From the IMG/VR virus record IMGVR_UViG_2693429768_000005: 55,692 nucleotides of DNA. The stretch is one strand, 5' to 3'. Below the pieces are notes generated by a model. The model was not told the origin of the DNA. It ran no database searches and was given only the letters and a program-made list of their open reading frames with translations. This document shows positions 1 through 54,535 of this stretch, piece after piece. A program made the position numbers and the translations under genes. Source of the DNA: a virus (lineage: Duplodnaviria; Heunggongvirae; Uroviricota; Caudoviricetes). Numbering within the stretch: the stretch's first letter is position 1; every line of letters begins with the position of its first letter.

Positions 1-1446
1 ATGAGTATGTCATCCATACCGTCGTCCTCCCAATCCGGGAAGCTCTATGGCTGGGTCGAAAGAATTGGTAACAAGGTTCCCCATCCTTTTTTGCTCTTTA
101 TCTATTTGATAATCGTACTCATGGTGACGACGGCAATTTTGTCAGCCTTTGGCGTCAGTGCGAAAAACCCGACCGATGGTACGCCGGTGGTGGTGAAAAA
201 CCTGCTCAGTGTGGAAGGATTACACTGGTTTTTACCCAATGTGATTAAAAACTTTAGCGGTTTTGCTCCACTTGGAGCGATCCTGGCGCTGGTTTTAGGT
301 GCCGGTCTGGCGGAGCGCGTCGGCTTACTGCCAGCGCTAATGGTTAAAATGGCATCGCATGTTAATGCCCGCTACGCCAGTTATATGGTGCTGTTTATTG
401 CTTTTTTCAGCCACATTTCTTCCGATGCGGCGTTAGTGATCATGCCACCGATGGGTGCGCTGATTTTTCTGGCGGTGGGCAGGCATCCAGTTGCAGGTTT
501 ACTGGCTGCCATTGCAGGCGTAGGTTGCGGCTTTACGGCTAATTTACTGATTGTCACAACCGACGTGTTGCTGTCGGGGATCAGCACGGAAGCGGCGGCT
601 GCGTTCAATCCGCAAATGCACGTCAGTGTAATTGATAACTGGTATTTTATGGCCAGCTCCGTAGTCGTACTGACGATTGTTGGCGGCCTGATAACCGACA
701 AAATCATCGAGCCACGATTAGGTCAATGGCAGGGAAACAGCGATGAGAAACTGCAGACATTGACCGAAAGTCAGCGTTTTGGTTTACGCATAGCAGGTGT
801 CGTATCGCTACTTTTTATTGCTGCGATCGCGCTGATGGTGATCCCGGAAAACGGGATATTGCGCGATCCGATTAATCACACCGTGATGCCATCACCCTTT
901 ATTAAAGGTATCGTGCCACTGATCATTCTTTTTTTCTTTGTTGTCTCGCTGGCTTATGGCATCGCTACCCGCACAATTCGACGTCAGGCGGATTTACCGC
1001 ATTTAATGATTGAACCGATGAAAGAGATGGCGGGATTTATCGTGATGGTTTTTCCCCTCGCCCAATTTGTCGCCATGTTTAACTGGAGCAACATGGGGAA
1101 ATTCATCGCCGTGGGGCTGACCGATATACTGGAAAGTTCAGGGCTTAGCGGCATACCGGCGTTTGTCGGTCTGGCGTTGCTTTCCTCTTTCTTATGCATG
1201 TTTATTGCCAGCGGTTCCGCAATCTGGTCGATTCTGGCCCCCATTTTCGTACCAATGTTTATGCTACTTGGCTTTCACCCGGCATTTGCGCAAATCCTCT
1301 TTCGTATTGCCGACTCATCCGTATTGCCTTTAGCGCCGGTATCTCCTTTTGTCCCACTGTTTCTTGGATTCCTGCAACGCTACAAACCAGACGCGAAACT
1401 GGGTACTTACTATTCGTTAGTCTTGCCCTATCCGCTTATCTTTTGA
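1..1446 (+). CDS. abgT: AbgT-family p-aminobenzoyl-glutamate transporter (host gene; C-terminus ends at prophage junction)
   Basis: 481-aa multi-TM protein starting MSMSSIPSSSQSGKLYGWVERIGNKVPHP, recognised as AbgT/MtrF family from memory; ORF starts at window position 1 and stops 150 bp before the first phage gene. Confidence 0.85.
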   Translation: MSMSSIPSSSQSGKLYGWVERIGNKVPHPFLLFIYLIIVLMVTTAILSAFGVSAKNPTDGTPVVVKNLLSVEGLHWFLPNVIKNFSGFAPLGAILALVLGAGLAERVGLLPALMVKMASHVNARYASYMVLFIAFFSHISSDAALVIMPPMGALIFLAVGRHPVAGLLAAIAGVGCGFTANLLIVTTDVLLSGISTEAAAAFNPQMHVSVIDNWYFMASSVVVLTIVGGLITDKIIEPRLGQWQGNSDEKLQTLTESQRFGLRIAGVVSLLFIAAIALMVIPENGILRDPINHTVMPSPFIKGIVPLIILFFFVVSLAYGIATRTIRRQADLPHLMIEPMKEMAGFIVMVFPLAQFVAMFNWSNMGKFIAVGLTDILESSGLSGIPAFVGLALLSSFLCMFIASGSAIWSILAPIFVPMFMLLGFHPAFAQILFRIADSSVLPLAPVSPFVPLFLGFLQRYKPDAKLGTYYSLVLPYPLIF

Positions 1447-1594: not shown

Positions 1595-4264
1595 TTATTT
1601 TTCGCTTCCAGTCAACTTACTGACAAGCGCTTCAAGTTTTGCGATACGCTCATCCATTGCGGCAATGTTGGCGCGTAGGCTGGCGTTTTCTTCTTCCAGT
1701 TCGGTTACGCGGTTATCCGTTTCGCGTGCCACCTGGACAAGTAAACCAGTCACTGCGGCGTAGTCAACATTGAGGTAACGCGTTTCCTCGCGTAACTCGT
1801 TGCCGTCAGTGGTCGGGCCTTGTAACGCTTCACCGTAATGAGTAAACGATCCCACAGCTTCCGGCAGCGCCTCCATTACCTCCTGAGCGATAACGCCAGC
1901 GTAAGGCAGGCCGTTTTCCTTGAGGGTGTAGGTGTACCCGTTCATTTTACGGATGGCTTCAGTTGCATCACCTATAACCTGAATGTTGTCTTTTAAGTCC
2001 CTGTCTGATGATTGGGTAACTGAAGTGCATGTGATAGTGCCTTCAACCGCAAGCGAAGCAGAACCATCGGAAAGGTATTTAGCCACAAACAGCGTTTTTA
2101 ATGATGTTTGTGCGCCGTTTGTATCAACAGCTTTAACCTCATAATTCAGCGGGGATGATGAACCGCCCCATGTCATCACCTGTACGTTTGCCGAGGTTGT
2201 TGCGTAAGCAATATGCCTTATGAAACGTGTGTGCGTGCTATCAAAGATATAATGACCACTAAAATGATTGTCTGCTGTCCATACGTTTGCTGTATTAAGC
2301 GTTGCAAGTTGACACCAATCCTTGATCGTTCCATTTTCAATACTTCTTGCATAGAATGATGAGTTGCGCCCGGCGAACTGGGTAGCATAGTTACCGCTAA
2401 AGGTGACATGAAAACCACCCGCAACGCCAATACCCAAAGGACCATTGTCACTGCCTGCGATTGGCTTAAACTTCTCTACAGCATCCGTATGCTGATCGTT
2501 CCAGTTTTGCCCAGCATTTATGGCGTAACCTTTAGATGATCCTATCAGGCCATTTATGGTTAGTTTGGGCATCGTCATTGATATGTCTTCACCAACGGTA
2601 ATTCCGTTAAACAGACCTACGCGAGCACCACTACAAATATAATGGAGTCCTTCAGTTGTTGCAGAATAAAAACCACAACGCCCCATTCTGAAATCAAACA
2701 TAACCTGTAGGTTTTTATATGAACCTAAGGGGTCTGATACACCCCACGGTATGATCGTTTCTGTATCTTTACCACTATTATATACAACCTGGGCGGTTGG
2801 TACTTGTACTGTTACGCCCACAGGCAAGCGCATTTTAATAGGGAATGCCCTTGCTTCAACAAAAACAAAGAGCAGGTTATCTTTGTCTTTGCTGGAACTA
2901 CAGATAGAATGTAAAGCGATTTCTTTGTCGGTATAACGATTGTAAAAACCGTAACCTGCATCCTTTCTGTCACTCCACCCGCCAGTCCTTACATACCCGG
3001 AAAAGGTGTTACAGTTCATTGGGTAATTACCAGCGCCAGACACTGTAACAATATCGATCTGATAGCCAGTCAGGTAAGCGTTGTAATAATTGGCGTTTAT
3101 AATTATAGGGTAATACTTACCATCCTCAACGCCTTCCGGGGCTTCGATTGTTATCATCTCGCCACCGCCTATGGTTGGGATATTGATGTTTCTCCTTGTC
3201 TGTTCAGCGTTTTTAGGTTTGAAAGAGTCGGCTATAAATTCGCCGTTTATGTTGAGGCTTGCGTATTTGCTCACGCCGCCAGATCTTAAATGCATTGTTA
3301 ACTGGTCTGGCGAAGAAAGGTTTGTCTCAGGGTATAGTGCACCATAAATACGCTCCGATCCTGATGTACCAACCAAAACGCTGGAAAGAATACCTCCCGC
3401 AACCCATCCGGTAGTCACGTCAGTAGCTCTTTTTAGCGATACATTAGCAAACTGAGGACTATTTGAAGACCCAACGCCCAGGTTTGTTCTTGCTGTGTCT
3501 GCATCTCCTGCACCAGTGCCGCCAGCAGAAATTGAAAGCGGTAGATATTTACTAGCCTCTGAGTCGAAACAACCCCACGTTCCTGAATCATAGACGGTAA
3601 GGAATTTATTTGCGTTTTGAGAGCATACGCGTGTTTCTCCTGTTCTTTGAATAAGCCTGTTTACTTCATCCTTGCGTGCGTGACGTGTCCAGTTCGGTCC
3701 TGATGTTGCGACCCATGTGTAAGTATAAAGTGATCGCGTAGACCAACCGACAAAGACGCCTGCATACGAAGGCGATGTATCCTGCTGACAGATAAATCCA
3801 CTCAAAAATGATTCACCAGCCGCTACGGAAGGAAAACCCTTAGTCGTTTCCTTTATGCGCAAAAAGCCAACGTAAGAAGACGGATTGCCTGATATATCGA
3901 CGCAATCTCGCGGCTCTGGACCCAAGCCAATATTGCTGCCATCTATTGCGCTTGATATTTCATCTTCCTTTTCCTGATAAAAACGAAGCGTTTCTGCTAC
4001 ATCCTGGGCAAGTCCATCAACTGAGATCGAGTCAGAAAGCAGAATACTGAATTTTGTCCCGGCAGCGATGGCAGGATTAGCCGCTGGCGTCACTGATAAT
4101 TCAGTACCGCTCTTAATTTCTGTGATGGTAAAGATCTGGATAGGGTTGCTGATGGCAATAAGCGTGCAACCCACACGAATGAGAGAAAGCGGCTCGGAAA
4201 AGTTTGTTCCCGTGCCTGCAACGGTATTGCCATTGATGGCAATTGTTCCAGTTGTGTAAATCAT
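1595..4264 (-). CDS. tail fibre/tailspike with C-terminal peptidase S74 intramolecular chaperone domain
   Basis: 889-aa ORF; C-terminal ~130 aa (DRDLKDNIQVIGD...GYTYT...YAGVIAQEV...coiled coil) matches the self-cleaving chaperone domain of phage tail fibres/endosialidases (family recalled from memory). Confidence 0.75.
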   Translation of the reverse strand: MIYTTGTIAINGNTVAGTGTNFSEPLSLIRVGCTLIAISNPIQIFTITEIKSGTELSVTPAANPAIAAGTKFSILLSDSISVDGLAQDVAETLRFYQEKEDEISSAIDGSNIGLGPEPRDCVDISGNPSSYVGFLRIKETTKGFPSVAAGESFLSGFICQQDTSPSYAGVFVGWSTRSLYTYTWVATSGPNWTRHARKDEVNRLIQRTGETRVCSQNANKFLTVYDSGTWGCFDSEASKYLPLSISAGGTGAGDADTARTNLGVGSSNSPQFANVSLKRATDVTTGWVAGGILSSVLVGTSGSERIYGALYPETNLSSPDQLTMHLRSGGVSKYASLNINGEFIADSFKPKNAEQTRRNINIPTIGGGEMITIEAPEGVEDGKYYPIIINANYYNAYLTGYQIDIVTVSGAGNYPMNCNTFSGYVRTGGWSDRKDAGYGFYNRYTDKEIALHSICSSSKDKDNLLFVFVEARAFPIKMRLPVGVTVQVPTAQVVYNSGKDTETIIPWGVSDPLGSYKNLQVMFDFRMGRCGFYSATTEGLHYICSGARVGLFNGITVGEDISMTMPKLTINGLIGSSKGYAINAGQNWNDQHTDAVEKFKPIAGSDNGPLGIGVAGGFHVTFSGNYATQFAGRNSSFYARSIENGTIKDWCQLATLNTANVWTADNHFSGHYIFDSTHTRFIRHIAYATTSANVQVMTWGGSSSPLNYEVKAVDTNGAQTSLKTLFVAKYLSDGSASLAVEGTITCTSVTQSSDRDLKDNIQVIGDATEAIRKMNGYTYTLKENGLPYAGVIAQEVMEALPEAVGSFTHYGEALQGPTTDGNELREETRYLNVDYAAVTGLLVQVARETDNRVTELEEENASLRANIAAMDERIAKLEALVSKLTGSEK

Positions 4265-4423
4265 CGCAATGACTCCATTATGTTAATTAACGGAATAATT
4301 CTACCATTTTGTGATCTTTGTTGCATTTTCTGCTTACACAAAATGTATTTGTTGATTTATGTCAATGTTGCGTAAATGCGGTTTATGGATACTACAAACA
4401 ACGAAACAACGGAGGGTAAGACA

Positions 4424-4663
4424 ATGAAAGGCTTTAAAAATATAGCTATCGCTGCAATGGTTGCTGGTCTGGTTGGTTGTGCTGATATGCCGAAACGTGA
4501 ATGCACGGCAACTTATCAAACTGGCGGTAATGAGTATGCGGTTGCAGTCTTCGGTGTCGCGGATGTTGGCGGTCATAAAATGGTTAAGGCCGGGTATCCG
4601 TTTAACTTCCAATGGGTAAGCGTTGACAACTTCAATAAAACGGATTGCCCGGAACTAAATTAA
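4424..4663 (+). CDS. small lipoprotein, candidate Cor/Llp-like superinfection-exclusion protein
   Basis: 79 aa from internal ATG after GGAGGG; signal peptide with lipobox LVGC; divergent from adjacent receptor-binding genes. Confidence 0.55.
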   Translation: MKGFKNIAIAAMVAGLVGCADMPKRECTATYQTGGNEYAVAVFGVADVGGHKMVKAGYPFNFQWVSVDNFNKTDCPELN

Positions 4664-5292
4664 TCATAGGCATCGGTTTTGATGGCGGTTATGGCGTTAC
4701 CGTGGTTTATATAGCCAGTAGGATTATATACGCCACCAGCCGTAACGCCATAGATTCTTGTTTTGCTGCCGTTATAGTATGCGGCAGCATAAATAGACGC
4801 TGAACCTTGCCCAACAACCGCGCCCAACAATTGCGGGCAAATTGCGTATGATCCTGAAAGTGTCTGATCTATATTTATACCCCCACTATTACCTGGTGAA
4901 CCGACTGTAACAATGTCCGTTAATATTCTTGATTCATTAGTTAGCACCAGTTCCCCCGAAGCGTTCCAGATAGCCATGCCCCACTTAGGGAGCGAAGGTG
5001 GGAAAATAGAAAACACATATACAGTAGCAGTATAGGTATTCTTAGTGTCCCTACCAAAAGCGCAAAGTATCTGCCCAGAGTTGGCCCTGCTAACGCTTGC
5101 TGTGACACCGCCTATACTTGTTTTTACGAATACCATTACAGGCTTGTTTGTTGGGACTGCAATGTATCTTGATGTGTTTTGCGTTGGTGGGCAAGAAATA
5201 TCTTGCCTTGTGTATAGACATATGGGCGTCGCTTCCGGTGTAACGAAAATATTCCCGTTACTTAATCTTAAATAAGCTCCGAATGTTGCCAT
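4660..5292 (-). CDS. phage distal-tail protein of unknown function (MATFG paralogue, 210 aa)
   Basis: ORF directly downstream of J; shares N-terminus MATFG with the adjacent ORF. Confidence 0.4.
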   Translation of the reverse strand: MATFGAYLRLSNGNIFVTPEATPICLYTRQDISCPPTQNTSRYIAVPTNKPVMVFVKTSIGGVTASVSRANSGQILCAFGRDTKNTYTATVYVFSIFPPSLPKWGMAIWNASGELVLTNESRILTDIVTVGSPGNSGGINIDQTLSGSYAICPQLLGAVVGQGSASIYAAAYYNGSKTRIYGVTAGGVYNPTGYINHGNAITAIKTDAYD

Positions 5293-5603
5293 TAAGCCGC
5301 CTCCGCAAATATAACAATTTCACACTGTGATGCGGGCCATATATTGGCTCCTACTGTATTACCTGCCGATGAAATTGATACGGTTCCGCCAGAAATTGTA
5401 ATCCTTCTACGCGTCGTTGATAACGTACCATGATCAAGCGTCATGCCGTATGATAATTTGCATCCGGTAGGAACGGTAAAGCTATATGTGCCTGATACTT
5501 GTCCTGAGGATAGCGAAATATAACCAACAACTACTGAAGGTTTGATTCCGTAGTTATTTGGATTTCCGTTGGCATCCCAGGTGGCTATGCCGAAAGTAGC
5601 CAT
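5292..5603 (-). CDS. phage distal-tail protein of unknown function (MATFG paralogue, 103 aa)
   Basis: ORF coupled to the 210-aa paralogue (stop/start overlap), same N-terminal motif. Confidence 0.4.
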   Translation of the reverse strand: MATFGIATWDANGNPNNYGIKPSVVVGYISLSSGQVSGTYSFTVPTGCKLSYGMTLDHGTLSTTRRRITISGGTVSISSAGNTVGANIWPASQCEIVIFAEAA

Positions 5604-5654: not shown

Positions 5655-8600
5655 TTACCATGATCCGGTAATTCGTCCAATTTGGACGCGCAACCTACCG
5701 TTTCCATCCCTAACGGAAATGGTTGTATTTGTTAGTTTCATCGCGCCCTCACCACTTACAGAACCGTAGTTTTCAAATGTGCCTGATTTATCCAGCTTCC
5801 AGCCTGTGCTATTGGAAACATAGTTGTTTGATTGAATGTATGAACCAATTTTTGCATTAGTGATTGACGCGTCTTTAATAAACGCCTCGCGCACATACAT
5901 TGCACCGTTAGACACATAGAAAGGCGTTGTATATGTGCCGTTTGCTGCGGTCATCAATACGAAGCGGTCAACGAGGAAAATACACTGCGATTGAACGTTA
6001 GTACCGCTGCCAGTTAAACCAAGTGACATACCTGTTGCGTATTTCATGCCGTTGTTGTCGGTTGCCAGCTTGATGGAGTACGTCGCATCAACATTACCTT
6101 TGAAGTCGGTTAACGCTTTTGACGTCGTTTCTATTGCCGTTGTGTTCCCGTTAACGGTCACTGTTAGCTGATCGATTTTGCTTGATAATGCCTCGTCAGC
6201 CGTAGCCATTGCCTGCGACCATTCTGTAATGTTTGAGTTTACAGAATCGAAAGACGCTGAGATCTGGCCAAATTTTTCCGCGCTTGACGCTTCATGCGTA
6301 GAAAGCGCCGTTGATACTTCAGACACCTTAGAGTTAATCGTACTGGTAAGCGATGAGTTAAGACTACTTATCGCGTCAGTGCGTGCCTTCGTTTCGTCTG
6401 CAATGGCCTTGTCGATACGGGTCACGTTGCTTGTAACCTTGCCATCAAGGGTTGAAATTGACGCATTTACGCCACTGATAGCTTGAGCGCGGGCGCTTGA
6501 CTCGTCAGCAATAGCCTGGTCCAAGCGTTTGACGCTGGCGTTTGTGTTACTTTCGAGCGTTGTTAAATCAGCTTTGACCTCTGTTATTGCGTCGCTTCTT
6601 GCCTGCGTTTCGTCAGATATTGCCTTATCAAGTCTGCTAACGCTGGCGTCTGTTTTGCTTTCAAGATTGCTTATCGAGGCATTCACGCCGCTGATAGCCT
6701 GAGCGCGGGCGCTCGTTTCGTCGGCGATAGCTTGATCAAGGCGGTTAACGCTGGCGTCGGTTTTCTTGTCGAGATCGCTTATTGATGCGTTCACGTTGTT
6801 AATTGCTTCAGCGCGGGCACTTGTTTCGTCTGCTACTGCGCGTTCCACGCTGGAAATCTGACCTTTAAGGTTGGAATCCATCGTGTTCATTTCTGCCGTG
6901 ATGGTTTTCAGCGATTCAGCCGTGGCCTTTTTCTCTTCAGCAATAACGTTGTCAATGCGGTCAATTTGCGCGTTTGTTTCTGATTGCCCTTTCTTGTATT
7001 GTGCAGTGAGCGTAACCCGCGTGTTGGTCTGCGCGAGCGAGTTATTAATCAGCGCCAAAGATGCGTTTTGCAGGCTTGCTTTTGCTTGCGCCAGTTCGCT
7101 GTCGATTCTTTCGCTGGATACCTCTAGCGAGTCAATTCTTACCTCATGTTGTCCAATACCATCGGTGTTTTCCCCAACCTTTTTATAAAGATCTTCCGTT
7201 TCTTTTTTCAGTGTGTCCGTATCAGCTTTTATGGCCCCCGTTTCTGTGATTAGGCCGTCCGTGTCAGTCCTCAAATCTTCAGTGATGTTTGTCAGGTTAT
7301 CGGTTGCAGTTTTGAGGCTGTCAGTAGCGTTTTTAAGGTCATTTGTAGCGCTTTCGATAAGGTCTGCACGGTCGCCTAGATCTTTAATGTCGCCAATCAT
7401 CCCTTTAAACTGTTCTGAATTAATCACGTCTTTTGTGACGTAGTCGCTGATTTCATCGAAGTTTTCAGTCGGTTTGCCGGATGCTTCAACGAAGTCTGAC
7501 ACACCAAAGGCATTACGCGTGCGCACATAAACGTAATAGGTGTGGCCCGTATTCATGCCGCCGAAAGTCCATTGGTAGCCGCGCCCGGTGAACTGTGCCA
7601 GCGTGGTTACTTTTGATGGGTCCGTGATCTGGTTTTCACCTGAGAAGTAGAACTCATATGCCGTATCAGTGGTCAGGGTTGTTTTGCTGATCGGGTACAC
7701 TGTTGCCTGGAAAACACCTGGAACCCAATTAACTCCAATCGGGGCCGCTGGCGCACCAATAACCAGGTCCACAATACTTTCCGCACCCTTCATGCCAGTG
7801 TCATTACGACCGCGAATACCAAGCGTGTAGCTGCCAGCATCAAGGCCATAAAAATCATAGCGGTAATTCGTTGTTTCATAAGCTGCCACCACGCGGCCTT
7901 CTGCGTTATATGCGCGGATCTCAAAGGTCAGGCGATGCGTTGTCGTCTGTGTTTCCCATGTAGCTCGACATTGAACAGTTTCAGAACCAACATTTAACAC
8001 CTTCAGGTTTTCAATGTTCGGCACGCGGAAGTGATTAAGCGTGTCGTTGTTTACCTCAAAGATTGCGCCTTCATCAACTACAGCCTGTTTGTGAGGATCA
8101 TGCTGTGCCGCCTCGATGGTGTACACGCTGTTATTTTCGGTTTCCGCTACGCTGGTGATTCGACACAGGACAGGTTTCGCGGATTCAGTTGATACGGCGA
8201 ATACGGTCCCGTTACGAATCCATGCGGGCGCCGCCGCAAGGGTAATATTGTTTCCGTCAACTCCAGTGATCTGATGTTTTTTAAACTTGCCGTCGCTGTC
8301 CAGTAAGCTGATAGTGTCACCAGCCGCCACCAGGTCAGAATCAACCTTGTCTACAGTTATCACTTTCCCGTTATTCGCCACGATGCGACCGCCCAAACGA
8401 GCGCCAGCGCGGTTATTGTCGAGTATCTCGATAATATCCCCGGGTGTGAAGTGAATTGCGTCACGGGCCATTTTAAACGTGAATTTTGAGGGTTCGCGTT
8501 TTGCTGTTTCTATCAGCCATTTGCCAGCGCGGTACGCCTGCCCGCGTGACGTGCAACCAAAAGCCTCTAACGTGGTTTCGTTGTAACCATCGCGGGCGAT

Positions 8601-9869
8601 CAGTTCGTCATCTGCCACGTATTCTTTTGATTGTTCCCAACCGTTTTCCGGGTCAGTCCATGACACGATCACGGCGTTGTAAGATTCTGCGCGGGCGATA
8701 CTTGAGCGAGTGAACGCGCCATCAACGACGTTAGCATTCGTTATGGTAGCAATTGGATCCTGCGGCGCATCAATCATCACAGTAAGGCGCTGCCCGTCCC
8801 ATAACGCGATACCACGGAACATGCCTGCAATGTTGTCCAGCAAGTCGCGGGCGCTCATTTGCTCCGTGATGTAAGCGTTAAGCGTCATGCGTGGTTCAAG
8901 GCCACCGTAACCGTCGTTCACCAACTGGTCGCAGTATTGAGAAAGCGTATACAGTGCGCCATCATCAACGTCGATGTAACCAGCGTGGCGGGCAAGCCCG
9001 AAGCGTTCATTTTTCACCAGATACCGGAAAAGCCATGCAGGGTTATTGGTGTATGCCTTTTTAAAGCCACCAAGCCATAAGCCTGAGTATGTGCGCGTTT
9101 CCGGGTCGTAGTTATCAGGCACATCAACAATCAGACCACGCATGTGATAGGTGCGTGTCGGCGTGTCAGTATACTGATCGTGGTCAATTACCGCGCCAGC
9201 GACAGCGGTATGAGGATAAGACAAGTTATCGTCGATTATCTCGCTGTAACTGCTCCACCTGGTGTCATTGCGAAGTAGATCGCTTTTGCTGTCTGGCGTT
9301 ACGCGACGAACGCGAATATCAAACGGTTTTTCATCCGGTGCCTGGATGATATGCGCTTCCATGTACTCGCCGCTTTGCTTACCTGGGCCAATGTGAATAT
9401 CCTTAACCAGTGACCAAGATGTTGATGATGAAGGCTTAACGTCAACCATCAACGTGACTGATGTATTGTATTGATTGCCCTTATCATCTGACTGAACCAG
9501 AGAATCAACGCCAAGATTCAGCCTTACGCGGTTAACGTTTGGATCTGAAACAGTCCTGATTATCGGCGTATCGTGAGTTACTTTTGCGTTTACAATAACG
9601 GTTGATTCAATGGCGTTGAAGCCGTTGATTGGTGACTGGTCAGCCGTACCATTACGCCACGCCACGCTAACGCCTGAGACTGATGTACCGCCGTTGGCGT
9701 CAGTGATTGGGCTGTCATTAAGCATTACGCTGTTTAATGGCGCTTTCTGGTTTACAGGTCCGTAGATTGGGCCTTCGCTGAGAATATCCAAAACACGATA
9801 AAACTGTTTATGAAACAGGTTATCGTTTAATAATGTTGGTGTTTTGGCTTTGCCGCCGCCGCTACTCAT
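5655..9869 (-). CDS. J: central tail fibre / host-specificity protein (lambda gpJ-like) with C-terminal coiled-coil repeat region
   Basis: 1404 aa; N-terminal two thirds align by eye to lambda J (TP..NL...EGPIxGPV...RMTPDS...FGCTSRGQA.RAGKWLI); C-terminal third diverges. Confidence 0.9.
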   Translation of the reverse strand: MSSGGGKAKTPTLLNDNLFHKQFYRVLDILSEGPIYGPVNQKAPLNSVMLNDSPITDANGGTSVSGVSVAWRNGTADQSPINGFNAIESTVIVNAKVTHDTPIIRTVSDPNVNRVRLNLGVDSLVQSDDKGNQYNTSVTLMVDVKPSSSTSWSLVKDIHIGPGKQSGEYMEAHIIQAPDEKPFDIRVRRVTPDSKSDLLRNDTRWSSYSEIIDDNLSYPHTAVAGAVIDHDQYTDTPTRTYHMRGLIVDVPDNYDPETRTYSGLWLGGFKKAYTNNPAWLFRYLVKNERFGLARHAGYIDVDDGALYTLSQYCDQLVNDGYGGLEPRMTLNAYITEQMSARDLLDNIAGMFRGIALWDGQRLTVMIDAPQDPIATITNANVVDGAFTRSSIARAESYNAVIVSWTDPENGWEQSKEYVADDELIARDGYNETTLEAFGCTSRGQAYRAGKWLIETAKREPSKFTFKMARDAIHFTPGDIIEILDNNRAGARLGGRIVANNGKVITVDKVDSDLVAAGDTISLLDSDGKFKKHQITGVDGNNITLAAAPAWIRNGTVFAVSTESAKPVLCRITSVAETENNSVYTIEAAQHDPHKQAVVDEGAIFEVNNDTLNHFRVPNIENLKVLNVGSETVQCRATWETQTTTHRLTFEIRAYNAEGRVVAAYETTNYRYDFYGLDAGSYTLGIRGRNDTGMKGAESIVDLVIGAPAAPIGVNWVPGVFQATVYPISKTTLTTDTAYEFYFSGENQITDPSKVTTLAQFTGRGYQWTFGGMNTGHTYYVYVRTRNAFGVSDFVEASGKPTENFDEISDYVTKDVINSEQFKGMIGDIKDLGDRADLIESATNDLKNATDSLKTATDNLTNITEDLRTDTDGLITETGAIKADTDTLKKETEDLYKKVGENTDGIGQHEVRIDSLEVSSERIDSELAQAKASLQNASLALINNSLAQTNTRVTLTAQYKKGQSETNAQIDRIDNVIAEEKKATAESLKTITAEMNTMDSNLKGQISSVERAVADETSARAEAINNVNASISDLDKKTDASVNRLDQAIADETSARAQAISGVNASISNLESKTDASVSRLDKAISDETQARSDAITEVKADLTTLESNTNASVKRLDQAIADESSARAQAISGVNASISTLDGKVTSNVTRIDKAIADETKARTDAISSLNSSLTSTINSKVSEVSTALSTHEASSAEKFGQISASFDSVNSNITEWSQAMATADEALSSKIDQLTVTVNGNTTAIETTSKALTDFKGNVDATYSIKLATDNNGMKYATGMSLGLTGSGTNVQSQCIFLVDRFVLMTAANGTYTTPFYVSNGAMYVREAFIKDASITNAKIGSYIQSNNYVSNSTGWKLDKSGTFENYGSVSGEGAMKLTNTTISVRDGNGRLRVQIGRITGSW
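6360..6900 (-). repeat. in-frame tandem ~105-bp repeats inside J encoding reiterated coiled-coil units
   Basis: protein repeats of the type DASVxRLDQAIADETSARAQAISGVNASIS.L..KT at least five times; DNA repeats visible (gcgcgggcgct...gcgatagc..g.tc.a.gcg.tt.acgctggcg). Confidence 0.6.
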
Positions 9870-9882
9870 GGTTTTTCTCCTG

Positions 9883-10413
9883 TTAACTTACAACGTCAAG
9901 GGCGTCTCTGTTGTTGCTTGTGTCTATGCCTAACGACCCGACATTTGAACCTATTTTCATTTCACCCAACAGGATCGGCACTGGTCTACCCTGGCCTACC
10001 TTGTTTTCAACGCTGGTGTATGTGTTGTTAGATATGGTGTTATCTTGTGCGCTTTCTGCTGATGTTTTTATCTTCATGTTGCGTGACATAAAGATCGAGA
10101 ACGCAACGCTAACAACCGAAACACCGATCAAAATCCAGCCTACAACGCCAATCCCCGCAATACCGCCTTCCACCACTGGCGCAACAATGACGGTAGTCCC
10201 GTCCGGGTATTTACTGTTAACCGCTGCGGGCGCGGTCTTTTCGTCATAATCTTTTCCGGCAATTCGCAAGCGCAACGGGGTGCTTAAAAACGCCTTCTTG
10301 AACTCATGATTCTGTGCAACCAGCAAGCCAAGTCCCTGCGCTGGTGTATCAACGTTTAAACACACTTTGCCGTAATATCTTCGAAGATTGCCCGTAAATC
10401 TAAACTTGAGCAT
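9883..10413 (-). CDS. I: tail tip assembly protein I
   Basis: 176 aa; similarity to lambda gpI (ILLGEMKIGS, Gly/Ala-rich hydrophobic core); position after K. Confidence 0.8.
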   Translation of the reverse strand: MLKFRFTGNLRRYYGKVCLNVDTPAQGLGLLVAQNHEFKKAFLSTPLRLRIAGKDYDEKTAPAAVNSKYPDGTTVIVAPVVEGGIAGIGVVGWILIGVSVVSVAFSIFMSRNMKIKTSAESAQDNTISNNTYTSVENKVGQGRPVPILLGEMKIGSNVGSLGIDTSNNRDALDVVS

Positions 10414-11087
10414 TTGTCAGATCTCCATATTGAATTGGTCTGTCGAACATACGCGGGCCGCATTTGCTCGCGGCGGCTTAACAGTCCGGCATTGTCATGA
10501 TGCAAAACAGTGTTATCGCCCAGGTAAATCATCGCGTGGCATGGGTCAGCGCCTTTAAACGGCTGACGGATAATCACGTCACCGGGCTGAATGCTTTGCG
10601 CGTCAACCATGAAAAACCCGTTCAATGGCAGGTTCTTTATGTACAGGTTTTCCCCACGCAGCCACCACCCGTCGTGTCGTTCAAAGTCAGGCAGATCCAC
10701 GCCGCATAGGTGATAGGCGTCACGGAAAAGTGAATAACAGTCTGTTTTCCCGTGCTCAAATTTACGGCCTAACAGGTGCGCCACCGGGCGGAATTTTCTC
10801 ACCCTGCCACCGGAACACAAAAACCACGGCAGGCCGGAAATAACCTGCTGTTGTCGATCCCGCGCTGACAATACCAATGAATTGTCAGTATGGGAGTGAA
10901 AAACGGCTGTTATAACGCCTAATTCGTCAGCTTTGATATAATCGTCAGGCGAGATTTTAAAGCTGTTGTGCGGCGTTTCAGACGCGTTTAAACATGGGTA
11001 AAAATAATCGTTATCTATCACCAGCCCGCAGACTTCCTCGCGCGGATGGGCTGCGGCATAGCGAATCATTTTATCTTCAAGTGCCAT
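10356..11087 (-). CDS. K: tail assembly protein K (JAB/MPN plus NlpC/P60-like)
   Basis: lambda gpK-like (HSH...D motif, Cys-His region); start set at ATG overlapping the L stop (TGATTATG). Confidence 0.8.
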   Translation of the reverse strand: MALEDKMIRYAAAHPREEVCGLVIDNDYFYPCLNASETPHNSFKISPDDYIKADELGVITAVFHSHTDNSLVLSARDRQQQVISGLPWFLCSGGRVRKFRPVAHLLGRKFEHGKTDCYSLFRDAYHLCGVDLPDFERHDGWWLRGENLYIKNLPLNGFFMVDAQSIQPGDVIIRQPFKGADPCHAMIYLGDNTVLHHDNAGLLSRREQMRPAYVRQTNSIWRSDKCSSLDLRAIFEDITAKCV

Positions 11088-11089
11088 AA

Positions 11090-11794
11090 TCAACCCACCT
11101 TGCTCGATCCTGGGAAACATGAAATTGGTAACGGATTAGGGCGCGGGAAACGCAAACGACAACCGCTCAGGCGGTGGCTGCATTTATCCAGCTTTGGATC
11201 GCTGGTCGATTCGTCTTTATCTGTAGCTACAGGGCCGCCACTGTATCCGCAACCGTCGCCCCGGTATTGCCACTGGCAAACGTCAGCAAGGATTGTGCGC
11301 CCAGGAATAACCGCCTTGTCAGCATCAATTGGCGTTGACAGTTCATACTGCACCTGGTCGGCTGTTTCTTCGCTCATCGCCTCAACGACGTAAAAAGATA
11401 CAGCCTCGATAGATGGATCTGCATCCGGGTTGCCGTTGGGGAAATTAACGGCGTCCAGGTATTTTACTTCCACCTGGCGGCGCGTAACCTTCATTCCTCG
11501 CAGGTCGTTAAAATCGTTGTTCATCCCGGTGATTAGCCCGCCAATGTTGGCTACTACCATTTGCGGGCGCGAGTAAACGCCTTCGTTTTTCATTTCGAAG
11601 CCAGTAGCCTCGATTGGGTAGCTGTTGTAAGTCACTCCCTTCCAGATAACCGGGCCGTAATAACCATTCGCGCCGGAATGGAAGCGGATAACCTCGCCAC
11701 CCAGGGGTGTGAGGTCTAATTCAAACAGGTCAATTACCGCGCCGACTCCGGCATCGACGGAATCAATAATCATTTCTGTAGGTATGCTGCGCAT
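11090..11794 (-). CDS. L: minor tail protein L
   Basis: 234 aa; aligns to lambda gpL (LDAVNF.NGN..ADP, C-terminal Cys cluster CxW.YRGD.CGY). Confidence 0.85.
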   Translation of the reverse strand: MRSIPTEMIIDSVDAGVGAVIDLFELDLTPLGGEVIRFHSGANGYYGPVIWKGVTYNSYPIEATGFEMKNEGVYSRPQMVVANIGGLITGMNNDFNDLRGMKVTRRQVEVKYLDAVNFPNGNPDADPSIEAVSFYVVEAMSEETADQVQYELSTPIDADKAVIPGRTILADVCQWQYRGDGCGYSGGPVATDKDESTSDPKLDKCSHRLSGCRLRFPRPNPLPISCFPGSSKVG

Positions 11795-54317: not shown

Positions 54318-54535
54318 TGGATAAGATCGGGACAATACTTATTAACCGTGAGCAAGTGCAAAAAATGTTAGGCGGGCTTAGCAAGTCCGCCTTTTTTAAG
54401 CTCGTTAAAAAATGGAAAGAAGCGGGAACTCCTTTCCCTGAACCTGTAAAGGGGATGCCAGCATTAAAGCGCGGGGGATCTCTTTACCGTTATCAGGACG
54501 TTATTTCATTTTGTAAATCGATGGGCTTCATGTAG
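54317..54535 (+). CDS. excisionase/AlpA-like HTH protein
   Basis: 72 aa; adjacent to integrase; HTH-like INREQVQKMLGGLSKSAFFKLVKK. Confidence 0.45.
   Translation: MDKIGTILINREQVQKMLGGLSKSAFFKLVKKWKEAGTPFPEPVKGMPALKRGGSLYRYQDVISFCKSMGFM

What the first reader, a model, noticed from the sequence alone, without database searches (positions are those of the whole stretch)
5655..9869. gpJ-like central fibre with a long internal array of coiled-coil repeats and a non-lambda C-terminal domain
The N-terminal ~900 residues are lambda J-like. Residues ~990-1170 consist of at least five reiterated ~35-aa units encoded by in-frame DNA repeats (6360-6900), followed by a distinct C-terminal domain. Intragenic tandem repeats in a host-range protein are a substrate for length variation and domain swapping.
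Basis: seen in the sequence. Interest (0 to 1): 0.45.

Follow-up and report, generated by a model that had tools for sequence, protein, structure and literature searches.

The report
Phage central tail fibre with variable repeats
This is the central tail-fibre gene of an E. coli prophage of the known mEp021 group; its long helical shaft is built from 36-residue repeats whose number differs between related phages, a feature already noted in the literature, so it is real but ordinary.

Summary
Window 5655-9869 (-) encodes a 1404-aa homologue of lambda J, the central tail fibre. It sits in an mEpimmI (mEp021-like) prophage of E. coli.

- Residues 1-811 form the lambda-like hub.
- Residues 812-1256 form a helical shaft containing two repeat arrays: eight heptads, and 36-aa (108-nt) units with five clean copies at aa 1005-1184.
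- Residues 1245-1382 form the tip.

The tip is Pfam Phage_Tail_Tip, which lambda J also has. It matches phage T1 gp33 to the last residue. What is missing is lambda's receptor-binding domain.

Receptor binding is probably supplied in trans by the two downstream genes plus cor. This is the T1/phi80-type module, so I predict FhuA as the receptor.

Among 130 relatives the 36-aa units number 4-14, in 65 different arrangements. Unit 4 of the window is a chimera lying exactly at a deletion junction. At least six tip types combine freely with copy number.

Repeat-length variation in this J family was already reported in 2025. [quoted passage not shown]

The parts
5655..9869 (-). Gene for the central tail fibre / tip attachment protein (gpJ homologue), 1404 aa
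   Evidence: ORF. Five gpJ Pfam domains. phrog_31 'central tail fiber J', 1083 bits. 38% identity to lambda J over aa 1-850. An identical protein, P0026, is annotated in E. coli.
7437..9869 (-). Lambda-J-like hub part, aa 1-811 (FNIII-A, Phage-tail_3, two Ig-like domains)
   Evidence: Pfam hits. BLASTP to lambda J.
7182..7349 (-). Heptad array, aa 841-896: eight units (ATNDLKN ATDSLKT ... ETEDLYK). This is the proximal part of the helical shaft.
   Evidence: Autocorrelation peaks at lags 7/14/21. Register printed. Relatives differ here in steps of 7 or 14 aa, through 0-4 extra copies of VDTDNLTNITDELR.
6102..7073 (-). Repeat region of the shaft, aa 933-1256, carrying the SxSxxMxxLxS-type motif. 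The motif holds an exact 36-residue register from aa 946 to 1162 and is degenerate and out of register from about aa 1185.
   Evidence: Forward motif at aa 946, 982, 1018, 1054, 1090, 1126, 1162. Reverse motif at aa 1039, 1075, 1111, 1147. Together with out-of-register matches there are 22 hits, against 5.8 +/- 2.4 in shuffles. Lag-36 autocorrelation.
6318..6857 (-). Five clean 36-aa (108-nt) units, aa 1005-1184; unit types I-J-B-D-A
6426..6533 (-). Unit 4 (aa 1113-1148), a chimera marking an in-register deletion junction
   Evidence: The 5' half matches mEp010 unit E and the 3' half matches mEp010 unit D. The crossover lies in a ~20-nt block that encodes SARAQA and is shared by both units.
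5724..6137 (-). Tip-fibre domain (Pfam PF09327 Phage_Tail_Tip), aa 1245-1382, all-beta
   Evidence: Pfam E 4.9e-43. AF2 with alignment, pLDDT 89, all strands. Foldseek match to the lambda J open-state fibre 8xcj/8xci, probability 1.0.
5658..5861 (-). T1-type terminal segment, aa 1337-1404 (...RLRVQIGRITGSW); the probable docking site for the downstream proteins. No receptor-binding domain follows.
   Evidence: End-to-end alignment with T1 gp33 aa 978-1172, PDB 9l9p_S, E 2.8e-48. This segment is shared only with UMNK88-type alleles. Every allele with this end that I examined is followed by the same downstream trio of genes.
5292..5603 (-). 103-aa protein, homologue of T1 / phi80 gp22 / N15 gp22; putative tip accessory (Ig-like) protein
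   Evidence: phrog_557 E 5e-30. Synteny in phi80 and T1. Modelling reported in PMC12309495.
4660..5292 (-). 210-aa protein, homologue of T1 / phi80 gp23; putative receptor-binding protein (FhuA class)
   Evidence: phrog_425 E 8e-57. tblastn gives 43-45% identity at 100% coverage to T1 and phi80. Literature: PMC8594841, PMC12309495, bioRxiv 10.64898/2026.04.02.716166.
4376..4663 (+). cor, a superinfection-exclusion lipoprotein. The ORF as listed may start too early: the likely signal peptide begins at MKGFKNIAIAAMVAGLVGC.
   Evidence: phrog_1119 'Cor superinfection exclusion protein', E 2e-23. Translation.

Best explanation
The gene encodes the trimeric central tail fibre (gpJ homologue) of an mEpimmI (mEp021-like) temperate siphophage. 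The prophage is integrated in E. coli next to abgT.

The protein has three parts:
1. A lambda-like hub, aa 1-811.
2. A roughly 445-residue alpha-helical shaft, aa 812-1256. It is built from eight heptads and from 36-aa units, of which five are clean.
3. A beta-structured tip of the lambda/T1 kind, ending in the phage T1-type terminal peptide with no receptor-binding domain of its own.

Inferred: the receptor is recognised by the 210-aa and 103-aa proteins encoded just downstream. These would dock on that terminal segment, as proposed for T1, phi80, Dhillonvirus and F-type pyocins. Their homology to the T1/phi80 proteins, together with the adjacent cor gene, predicts FhuA as the receptor.

Shown: the shaft arrays change length in whole units by in-register homologous recombination. 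Relatives carry 4-14 units, and the window allele (I-J-B-D-A) derives from a two-block allele by a deletion whose junction is unit 4.

Inferred: the shaft sets how far the tip reaches. [quoted passage not shown]
For: Identity and synteny:
- Pfam, PHROG and BLASTP results.
- Genes for L, K and I lie upstream and the tape-measure gene beyond them.
- Nucleotide identity to mEp phages is 84-95% for J and 86-92% over 24 kb of flank.

Repeats.

Copy-number variation and unit arrangements.

Chimeric junction.

Tip:
- PF09327 is present in both the window protein and lambda J, and lambda's PF12421 is absent here.
- T1 gp33 aligns to the last residue.
- The AF2 model is all-beta with pLDDT 89, and Foldseek matches lambda's open-state fibre.

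Trans module:
- PHROG hits.
- 350 phage records carry the 210-aa homologue, including T1 and phi80 at 43-45% identity and full coverage.
- Synteny in phi80 and T1.
- The same trio follows all four J alleles with this terminus, whether they carry 5, 6, 9 or 11 units.
- Alleles with a 125-155-aa distal domain lack these genes.

Literature:
- PMC11893012: J of mEpimmI phages is a virion protein, has repeats of different length, and the phages use LamB or OmpA.
- PMC8594841 and bioRxiv 10.64898/2026.04.02.716166: the locus downstream of gpJ encodes receptor specificity, and the FhuA family is defined by >30% identity.
- PMC12309495 and PMC12874032: J ends without a receptor-binding domain and is capped by the downstream proteins.

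Helical shaft: AF2 without an alignment gives a helix for aa 1077-1254.
Against: - No experiment on this prophage exists. Attachment of the 103-aa and 210-aa proteins to J, and FhuA binding, rest on homology, synteny and published modelling.
- These two proteins have no sequence match in the PDB.
- PHROGs labels them membrane proteins or morons. PMC12309495 argues that this label is a misannotation.
- Both AF2 models are of single chains, whereas the fibre is a trimer.
- The units inside this allele are too diverged for frequent intragenic recombination: 48-71% nt identity, with at most 14 nt exact in register. The rate of length change is therefore unknown.
- The functional effect of shaft length has not been tested.
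Confidence: 0.85

Rival explanations
1. The shaft is a metastable spring. On receptor binding the repeat array refolds from a trimeric coiled coil into a triangular beta-prism, as in F7 pyocin. This shortens the fibre by tens of nanometres, opens the tail tip and drives tape-measure ejection. Copy number would then tune both reach and stored energy.
For: - The shaft and tip are homologous to the F-pyocin central fibre: PDB 25vf_A aa 920-1188 aligns with J aa 1095-1367, E 1e-34. That stretch covers the pyocin segment reported to switch, aa 921-1083 (PMC12874032).
- The published SxSxxMxxLxS motif recurs in alternating orientation twice per 36-aa unit: 22 hits against 5.8 +/- 2.4 in shuffles, and 3 in the 811-aa hub.
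- Across 413 distinct units, the S positions are 92-100% small and the L and M positions are 100% hydrophobic. E11 is invariant and R15 is 91% conserved, which fits the buried salt bridge described in that paper.
- AF2 predicts aa 1185-1254 as helix without an alignment (pLDDT 81-95) and as long beta strands with an alignment (pLDDT 87-96). The paper reports the same split between shallow and deep alignments.
- The paper predicts the switch in 21 of 24 siphophage central fibres.
Against: - The experimental switch is known only for a 163-residue pyocin segment, described in a preprint.
- Here the repeat region is 324 residues, and it exceeds 600 in relatives.
- In the pyocin the coil needs side fibres to stay assembled. 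No equivalent was examined here.
- The two AF2 runs used single chains and different segments. The clean units 1-5 were never predicted with a deep alignment.
- Lambda and T5 do not use this switch (PMC12874032).
Confidence: 0.35
2. The shaft is only a rigid spacer. It sets the distance between the tail tip and the receptor binder, for example to span O-antigen or capsule or to match side-fibre length, and it does not refold. Copy-number differences are neutral or adapt the fibre to different surface layers.
For: - The helix prediction is confident.
- Length varies from 4 to 14 units with conserved first (I) and last (A) units, and the variation is independent of tip type. This shows the function tolerates a wide range of lengths.
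- The T1 gp33 distal part is described as a long flexible extension of about 370 Å (PMC11945409).
Against: - It does not explain why the small residues exposed in the coil (positions 7, 9, 14, 16, 24, 35) are 92-100% conserved in 413 distinct units.
- It does not explain why an alignment-based AF2 run turns the distal shaft into strands.
Confidence: 0.4
3. One reading: the C-terminal domain is a foreign, non-lambda receptor-binding domain, and J itself decides host range. The repeats serve as the recombination site where such domains are exchanged.
For: - Distal ends do differ between relatives.
- One junction lies inside the array.
- In relatives with a 125-155-aa distal extension, J probably does bind LamB directly (PMC11893012).
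Against: - The terminal domain here is PF09327, which lambda J shares.
- The protein ends 22 residues after that domain, with the T1 terminus.
- The tip types diverge inside and after PF09327, from about aa 1336, and not in the repeats.
Confidence: 0.08
4. The repeat units are docking sites for the side tail fibres, as on the alpha-helical shaft of F-type pyocins. Copy number would then set how many side fibres are carried, or where they sit.
For: - F2 and F7 pyocin side fibres bind an acidic kink in the helical shaft (PMC13455828, PMC12874032).
- Each unit here has acidic residues at positions 5, 10 and 11 and a frequent Gly at position 21.
- A side-fibre gene lies nearby, at 1595-4264.
Against: - No test was made.
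- The side fibre here has a different N-terminus (phrog_1980/1591 type).
- In lambda-like phages side fibres attach around the distal tail protein (PMC13455828).
Confidence: 0.1

Closest known systems
J proteins of mEpimmI coliphages (mEp010, mEp013, mEp021, mEp044, mEp515, mEp554; Front Microbiol 2025, PMC11893012)
   Same: - Same gene in the same genome backbone: 84-95% nt identity over J and 86-92% over 24 kb of flank.
- Same hub, same two repeat arrays and same conserved post-repeat stretch.
- The paper already states that these J proteins differ in size and contain 'repeats of different length (positions 950-1,475)'.
   Different: - The window allele has one short block of five units (I-J-B-D-A). 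The six phages have 4-12 units, mostly in two blocks.
- Its terminus is the T1 type, followed by the two-gene module plus cor. It is neither the LamB type with a distal domain nor the OmpA type with a 311-aa DUF6453 partner.
Phage T1 gp33 central fibre with its two downstream genes and cor (also phi80 gp21-gp24 and N15 gp21-gp24)
   Same: - The tip aligns end to end, with the same final peptide.
- Same order of genes: J, a ~100-aa gene, a ~210-230-aa gene, then cor.
- The 210-aa protein is 43-45% identical at full coverage.
- T1 gp33 also has a short helical repeat segment before the tip (alignment).
   Different: - T1, phi80 and N15 J proteins are about 1170-1190 aa, with roughly 100-150 residues of helical segment.
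- The window protein has about 445 residues of shaft, with ordered 36-aa units.
- The genome backbone is different.
F-type pyocin central fibre protein (PyoF10; PDB 25vf/25vj/26ci; PMC12874032, PMC13455828)
   Same: - Sequence homology over the distal shaft and tip, E 1e-34.
- No receptor-binding domain in cis; two small downstream proteins (PyoF11 and PyoF12) are proposed to cap the fibre.
- Trimeric coiled-coil shaft carrying the SxSxxMxxLxS motif.
   Different: - The pyocin shaft is 163 residues and is not described as a tandem array of variable copy number.
- It belongs to a tailocin of Pseudomonas and not to a phage of E. coli.
- The fold switch is shown there and only inferred here.
Lambda gpJ
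   Same: Hub domains, Ig-like domains and the Phage_Tail_Tip domain.
   Different: - Lambda has no helical shaft: its tip domain starts about 30 residues after the second Ig domain.
- Lambda ends in its own LamB-binding domain, PF12421, which is absent here.

Membership tests
Lambda gpJ-like tip attachment / central tail fibre proteins | Hub and Ig-like domain set: FNIII-A_GpJ, Phage-tail_3, Ig_J, Ig_J_second | tested here: met
   All four are above the Pfam cut-offs. 38% identity to lambda J over 850 aa.
Lambda gpJ-like tip attachment / central tail fibre proteins | Position in the tail-tip operon after the genes for L, K and I | tested here: met
   Phage_tail_L at 11090-11794, JAB+NlpC/P60 (gpK type) at 10356-11120, and a 176-aa I-position gene at 9883-10413. 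Relatives are annotated the same way.
Lambda gpJ-like tip attachment / central tail fibre proteins | Central straight-fibre domain (PF09327 Phage_Tail_Tip) | tested here: met
   E 4.9e-43 at aa 1245-1382. Lambda J has it at aa 845-972. Foldseek match to 8xcj/8xci.
Lambda gpJ-like tip attachment / central tail fibre proteins | C-terminal receptor-binding domain of lambda J (PF12421 Ig_GpJ_C) | tested here: not met
   No hit in the window protein at E <= 0.1. Lambda J scores 4.5e-74. The protein ends 22 aa after PF09327.
mEpimmI (mEp021-like) phage J family | High nucleotide identity and shared genome backbone with the mEp phages | tested here: met
   84-95% identity over J. 86-92% over 70-87% of a 24-kb flank.
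mEpimmI (mEp021-like) phage J family | J is a virion structural protein | not testable with these tools
   Shown by mass spectrometry for mEp021 only (PMC11893012).
T1/phi80-type fibre lacking its own receptor-binding domain, with receptor binder encoded downstream | J ends in the T1-type terminal segment | tested here: met
   9l9p_S aa 978-1172 aligns with J aa 1208-1404 to the last residue, E 2.8e-48.
T1/phi80-type fibre lacking its own receptor-binding domain, with receptor binder encoded downstream | Two downstream genes homologous to T1 / phi80 gp22 and gp23, plus cor | tested here: met
   phrog_557, phrog_425 and phrog_1119. tblastn to T1 and phi80. Synteny.
T1/phi80-type fibre lacking its own receptor-binding domain, with receptor binder encoded downstream | Downstream proteins physically cap the fibre and bind FhuA | not testable with these tools
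   Only published AlphaFold models and genetics for other phages exist (PMC12309495, PMC8594841, bioRxiv 10.64898/2026.04.02.716166). The two proteins have no PDB sequence match.
Fold-switching central fibres (F7 pyocin type) | Homology to the pyocin central fibre over shaft and tip | tested here: met
   25vf_A E 1.3e-34, aligned over J aa 1095-1367.
Fold-switching central fibres (F7 pyocin type) | SxSxxMxxLxS motif in strands of alternating direction | tested here: met
   Motifs at an exact 36-residue period in both orientations, enriched about fourfold over shuffles. The key positions are conserved in 413 distinct units.
Fold-switching central fibres (F7 pyocin type) | Both coiled-coil and beta-prism conformations predicted for the same residues | tested here: inconclusive
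   aa 1185-1254 is helix without an alignment and strands with one. Both are single-chain models, and the clean units were not run with an alignment.
Fold-switching central fibres (F7 pyocin type) | Alpha-to-beta transition on receptor binding, required for function | not testable with these tools
   Needs cryo-EM or cryo-ET and mutagenesis.
Slippage-prone (contingency-type) tandem repeats | Near-identical units that allow frequent gain or loss within a lineage | tested here: not met
   The units are 48-71% identical at nt level, and the longest exact in-register run is 14 nt. TRF sees only 2.1 copies.

The most novel reading that the evidence does not exclude
The 36-aa array is a naturally expandable fold-switch module. 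Each unit would be one beta-hairpin of a post-ejection beta-prism, or about 5.4 nm of pre-ejection coiled coil. Phages of this group would then tune the stroke length and stored energy of their tail-tip trigger by adding or removing whole units, from 4 to 14. That gives a ready-made allelic series for testing the coiled-coil-to-beta-prism mechanism in a phage that can be propagated.
Probability: 0.3. Interest if true: 0.6.

Novelty: new member of a known kind. Interest (0 to 1): 0.3.

Why it matters
As it stands, this is a well-behaved example of modular host-range hardware. It has a conserved hub, a shaft whose length changes in whole units, and an exchangeable tip matched to a receptor-binding module encoded downstream. 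That allows a receptor prediction (FhuA) for an uncharacterised E. coli prophage.

The wider value lies in the allelic series. Closely related, culturable mEp phages differ mainly in the number of shaft units. This makes them a practical system for two questions. Does central-fibre length matter for reaching receptors through surface polysaccharide? Does the fold switch recently found in F-type pyocins operate in real phages?

Tried and rejected
- **Weak Pfam coiled-coil hits.** DUF1664, SF-assemblin, DUF4618 and DUF3584 are all below their cut-offs, and the precomputed PF28217 turned out to be 'FAM81B (faint)'. I rejected them as composition-driven matches to a coiled coil.
- **TRF.** It reports only 2.1 copies because the units have diverged. 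I used a protein-level profile and autocorrelation instead.
- **First autocorrelation script.** It timed out and was rewritten.
- **PDB sequence searches with the 210-aa and 103-aa proteins.** Nothing found.
- **Foldseek of the tip model.** Probability 1.0 to lambda's open-state fibre, but TM-scores are low (0.25-0.39). The cause is that one chain of an intertwined trimer is compared with extended chains. I use it only as support for the Pfam and sequence result.
- **Second large protein search with the tip alone.** It returned mostly fragments. These were good enough for an alignment but not for a survey.
- **Unit profile against 1.84 billion representatives.** It gave only 66 hits. This shows the exact unit type is narrow, though similar ADExxAR units with 18-, 33- and 35-aa periods occur in other fibre proteins. 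I did not follow those up.
- **Contingency-locus or slippage explanation.** Considered and rejected because unit identity is too low.
- **No tRNA genes in the window.**
- **Link between side-fibre length and repeat number.** Considered from the annotated lengths of relatives. No pattern was apparent, and no formal analysis was made.

Full report
**What is in the sequence**

The finding coincides with one ORF, 5655-9869 on the minus strand, of 1404 codons. Pfam places four gpJ hub domains in the first 811 residues:
- FNIII-A_GpJ at aa 88-214
- Phage-tail_3 at aa 335-492
- Ig_J at aa 609-707
- Ig_J_second at aa 709-811

PHROGs gives 'central tail fiber J' at 1083 bits. BLASTP to lambda J gives 38% identity over residues 1-850. 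Upstream lie genes of the L, K and I types and a tape-measure gene.

The window starts in a host abgT-family gene (1-1446) and ends in an integrase gene (54493-55692). The 24 kb next to J is 86-92% identical to the mEp021-group coliphages. The window is therefore an mEpimmI-type prophage of E. coli. An identical 1404-aa protein is on record from E. coli on eight contigs (P0026).

**The repeats**

TRF finds a 108-nt period at 6606-6830. The repeat finder gives four-copy families spaced 108 or 216 nt apart between 6349 and 6850. Written in a 36-residue register, the protein shows five clean units at aa 1005-1184, window 6318-6857. Their consensus is VxRLDxAIADETSARAxAISxVNASISxLxSKTxAS.

BLOSUM autocorrelation of aa 933-1256 peaks at lags 36, 72 and 108, with scores 1.53, 1.46 and 1.22. 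The maximum over 500 shuffles was 0.17. The array is therefore not a chance effect of composition.

**The C-terminal domain is not 'non-lambda'**

Residues 1245-1382 match Pfam PF09327 (Phage_Tail_Tip) at E 4.9e-43. Lambda J has the same domain at aa 845-972, followed by its LamB-binding domain PF12421 at aa 1001-1132. The window protein stops 22 residues after PF09327 and has no PF12421.

Compared with lambda, then, about 430 residues of shaft are inserted between the second Ig domain and the tip-fibre domain, and the terminal receptor-binding domain is missing.

A sequence search of the PDB with aa 812-1404 gave three relevant matches:
- Phage T1 gp33 (9l9p_S) was best. Residues 978-1172 align with J aa 1208-1404 to the very last residue (RLRVQIGRLTGSW against RLRVQIGRITGSW), E 2.8e-48.
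- The F2-pyocin central fibre (25vf_A) aligns aa 920-1188 with J aa 1095-1367, E 1e-34.
- Lambda J matches weakly.

An AF2 model of aa 1185-1404, built with a 32-sequence alignment, is all-beta with mean pLDDT 89. Foldseek matches it to lambda's open-state central fibre (8xcj, 8xci) at probability 1.0 but with low TM-scores. Low TM-scores are expected when one chain of an intertwined trimer is compared.

**The probable receptor binder is encoded downstream**

Directly after J come three genes:
- a 103-aa gene (5292-5603, phrog_557)
- a 210-aa gene (4660-5292, phrog_425)
- cor on the other strand (4376-4663, phrog_1119)

Homologues of the 210-aa protein occur in 350 phage records. These include T1 (43.2% identity, full coverage) and phi80 (44.6%, full coverage). 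In both phages the gene order is J, a ~100-aa gene, a ~225-aa gene, then cor.

Among relatives, every J that ends in ...RVQIGRITGSW is followed by the same trio, whether it carries 5, 6, 9 or 11 units. I checked the window, UMNK88, P0001 and P0067. Other tip types have other partners:
- J alleles ending ...GGKI(V/I)(V/I)G(K/V)W are followed by a 311-aa DUF6453 protein. In mEp021 this protein is annotated as a virion structural protein.
- Alleles with an extra 125-155-aa distal domain have only a small lipoprotein gene downstream.

This pattern fits published proposals:
- The locus downstream of gpJ encodes the receptor binder and its cognate exclusion protein (PMC8594841; bioRxiv 10.64898/2026.04.02.716166). 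The latter defines the FhuA family by >30% identity and >99% coverage.
- J proteins that lack the Ig-like domain are capped by these small proteins (PMC12309495; PyoF11 and PyoF12 in PMC12874032 and PMC13455828).

T1 and phi80 are classical FhuA phages (abstract of PMC10373560), and Cor excludes FhuA-dependent phages (Arguijo-Hernandez et al. 2018, as listed in the references of PMC11893012). I therefore predict FhuA as the receptor. This is an inference from homology and was not shown here.

**Length variation and recombination**

A profile of the five units counts copies in nine annotated relatives:

| Relative | Units |
|---|---|
| mEp554 | 12 |
| mEp021 | 12 |
| UMNK88 | 11 |
| mEp010 | 9 |
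| M1/5 | 7 |
| N1286 | 5 |
| mEp515 | 4 |
| MagusPhagus | 4 |
| mEp013 | 4 |

In 120 database representatives the count runs from 5 to 14.

I grouped the 1221 units into 25 types and wrote each array as a string. The commonest is IJBE-CHFDA, two blocks separated by a 46-aa spacer. The window is IJBDA. There are 65 different strings among 130 proteins. The first unit is nearly always type I (type P in a few alleles such as mEp013 and MagusPhagus) and the last nearly always type A.

The heptad region also varies, in steps of 7 or 14 aa, through 0-4 extra copies of VDTDNLTNITDELR.

At nucleotide level the window gene is collinear with mEp010 at 94.6% identity up to gene position 3392, where the match breaks inside unit 4. 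The next stretch is closest to mEp013 (91%). The last 207 nt are shared only with UMNK88-type alleles.

Unit 4 is a chimera. Its 5' half matches mEp010 unit E and its 3' half matches mEp010 unit D. The crossover lies in a ~20-nt block, encoding SARAQA, that both units share. The window allele therefore arose from a two-block allele by an in-register deletion.

At least six kinds of C-terminus occur, and each combines with several copy numbers.

One qualification applies. Units within this allele are only 48-71% identical in DNA, and the longest exact in-register run is 14 nt. The array is therefore not a fast slippage locus. The changes look like occasional homologous exchanges, probably mostly between co-infecting or resident relatives.

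**What the shaft does**

AF2 without an alignment predicts aa 1077-1254 as one uninterrupted helix, with pLDDT 81-96 up to about aa 1236. At 1.5 Å per residue (textbook helical rise), the ~445-residue shaft would be roughly 65 nm long, and each unit would add about 5.4 nm. These lengths are inference.

A 2026 preprint (PMC12874032) shows that a 163-residue coiled coil at the homologous position of the F7 pyocin central fibre refolds into a beta-prism on target binding. It shows that this refolding is required for killing, and it describes a motif, SxSxxMxxLxS, in each strand.

The window array carries this motif:
- The forward form is at aa 946, 982, 1018, 1054, 1090, 1126 and 1162. The reverse form is at aa 1039, 1075, 1111 and 1147. 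That is once in each orientation per 36-aa unit.
- In all there are 22 matches in aa 812-1260. Shuffles give 5.8 +/- 2.4, and the 811-residue hub has only 3.
- Across 413 distinct units from relatives, the S positions are 92-100% small and the L and M positions are 100% hydrophobic. E11 is invariant and R15 is 91% conserved. This fits the buried salt bridge the preprint describes.
- Residues 1185-1254 are helix in the alignment-free model and long strands in the alignment-based model. The preprint reports the same split between shallow and deep alignments.

This makes a fold-switching shaft a serious possibility. I put it at about one in three, because the models are single-chain, the clean units were not run with a deep alignment, and the only experimental case is a much shorter pyocin segment. 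A passive spacer is about equally likely. A role as a side-fibre dock, as on the pyocin shaft (PMC13455828), is possible but untested.

**Comparison with what is known, and novelty**

The gene family, its virion location, the size differences and the presence of 'repeats of different length (positions 950-1,475)' followed by a conserved stretch and a variable terminus are already stated for six mEpimmI phages in PMC11893012. The J-plus-downstream-binder arrangement is described for T1-like, Dhillonvirus and related phages and for F-type pyocins.

What this analysis adds is modest:
- the exact 36-aa unit grammar
- the chimeric junction in this allele
- the pairing of tip type with downstream module inside the mEpimmI group, including a T1/phi80-type FhuA module that the 2025 paper did not characterise
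- the observation that the units carry the fold-switch motif

I rate it a new member of a known kind, with interest 0.3.

Noticed in passing
window 4376-5603: Two small genes after J (103 aa and 210 aa) plus cor on the opposite strand form the T1/phi80/N15-type module. PHROGs labels the two proteins 'outer membrane' and 'membrane associated' proteins. Recent papers argue that these labels are misannotations of tail-tip receptor-binding components.
   Followed up: yes
window 7182-7349 (J aa 841-896): A second repeat array of eight heptads lies in the proximal shaft. Relatives gain 0-4 copies of a 14-aa unit, VDTDNLTNITDELR, at this spot. This shifts the start of the 36-aa array to aa 998, 1005, 1019, 1033 or 1047.
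   Followed up: yes
window 1-1446 and 54493-55692: The window begins in a host AbgT-family transporter gene and ends in a tyrosine integrase gene. The prophage therefore fills nearly the whole window, with the tail-fibre end next to abgT. The attachment site itself was not located.
   Followed up: partly
L003 2437-3003 and L004 1937-2503 (mEp021, mEp515); window 9870-9882: mEp021 and mEp515 carry a 567-nt HNH endonuclease gene inserted between the I and J genes. The window and the other relatives have only a 13-nt gap there.
   Followed up: no
L003 8220-9155, L004 6718-7653, L013 8059-8994: J alleles ending ...GGKI(V/I)(V/I)G(K/V)W have no distal domain. This is the OmpA-dependent type in mEp021 and mEp515. 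They are followed on the opposite strand by a 311-aa DUF6453 protein that was found in mEp021 virions. It is a likely separate receptor binder for that tip type.
   Followed up: partly
window 1595-4264 (-): An 889-aa side tail fibre with a C-terminal Peptidase_S74 intramolecular chaperone domain. Its length and sequence differ widely among relatives.
   Followed up: no
proteins P0193, P0197, P0203, P0209, P0214: Units of the same ADExxAR kind occur in other large proteins with periods of 36, 33, 35, ~34 and 18 residues. P0214 has a run of ten copies spaced 18 aa apart (twelve matches in all). This suggests the basic structural period is 18 residues. Only 66 cluster representatives out of 1.84 billion match the window's unit profile.
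   Followed up: partly
window 4334-4612 (-): A 92-aa ORF overlaps cor on the opposite strand and has no family match. It is probably not a gene.
   Followed up: no
J aa 1185-1254 (window 6108-6317): AF2 predicts these residues as a confident helix without an alignment (pLDDT 81-95) and as confident beta strands with an alignment (pLDDT 87-96).
   Followed up: partly
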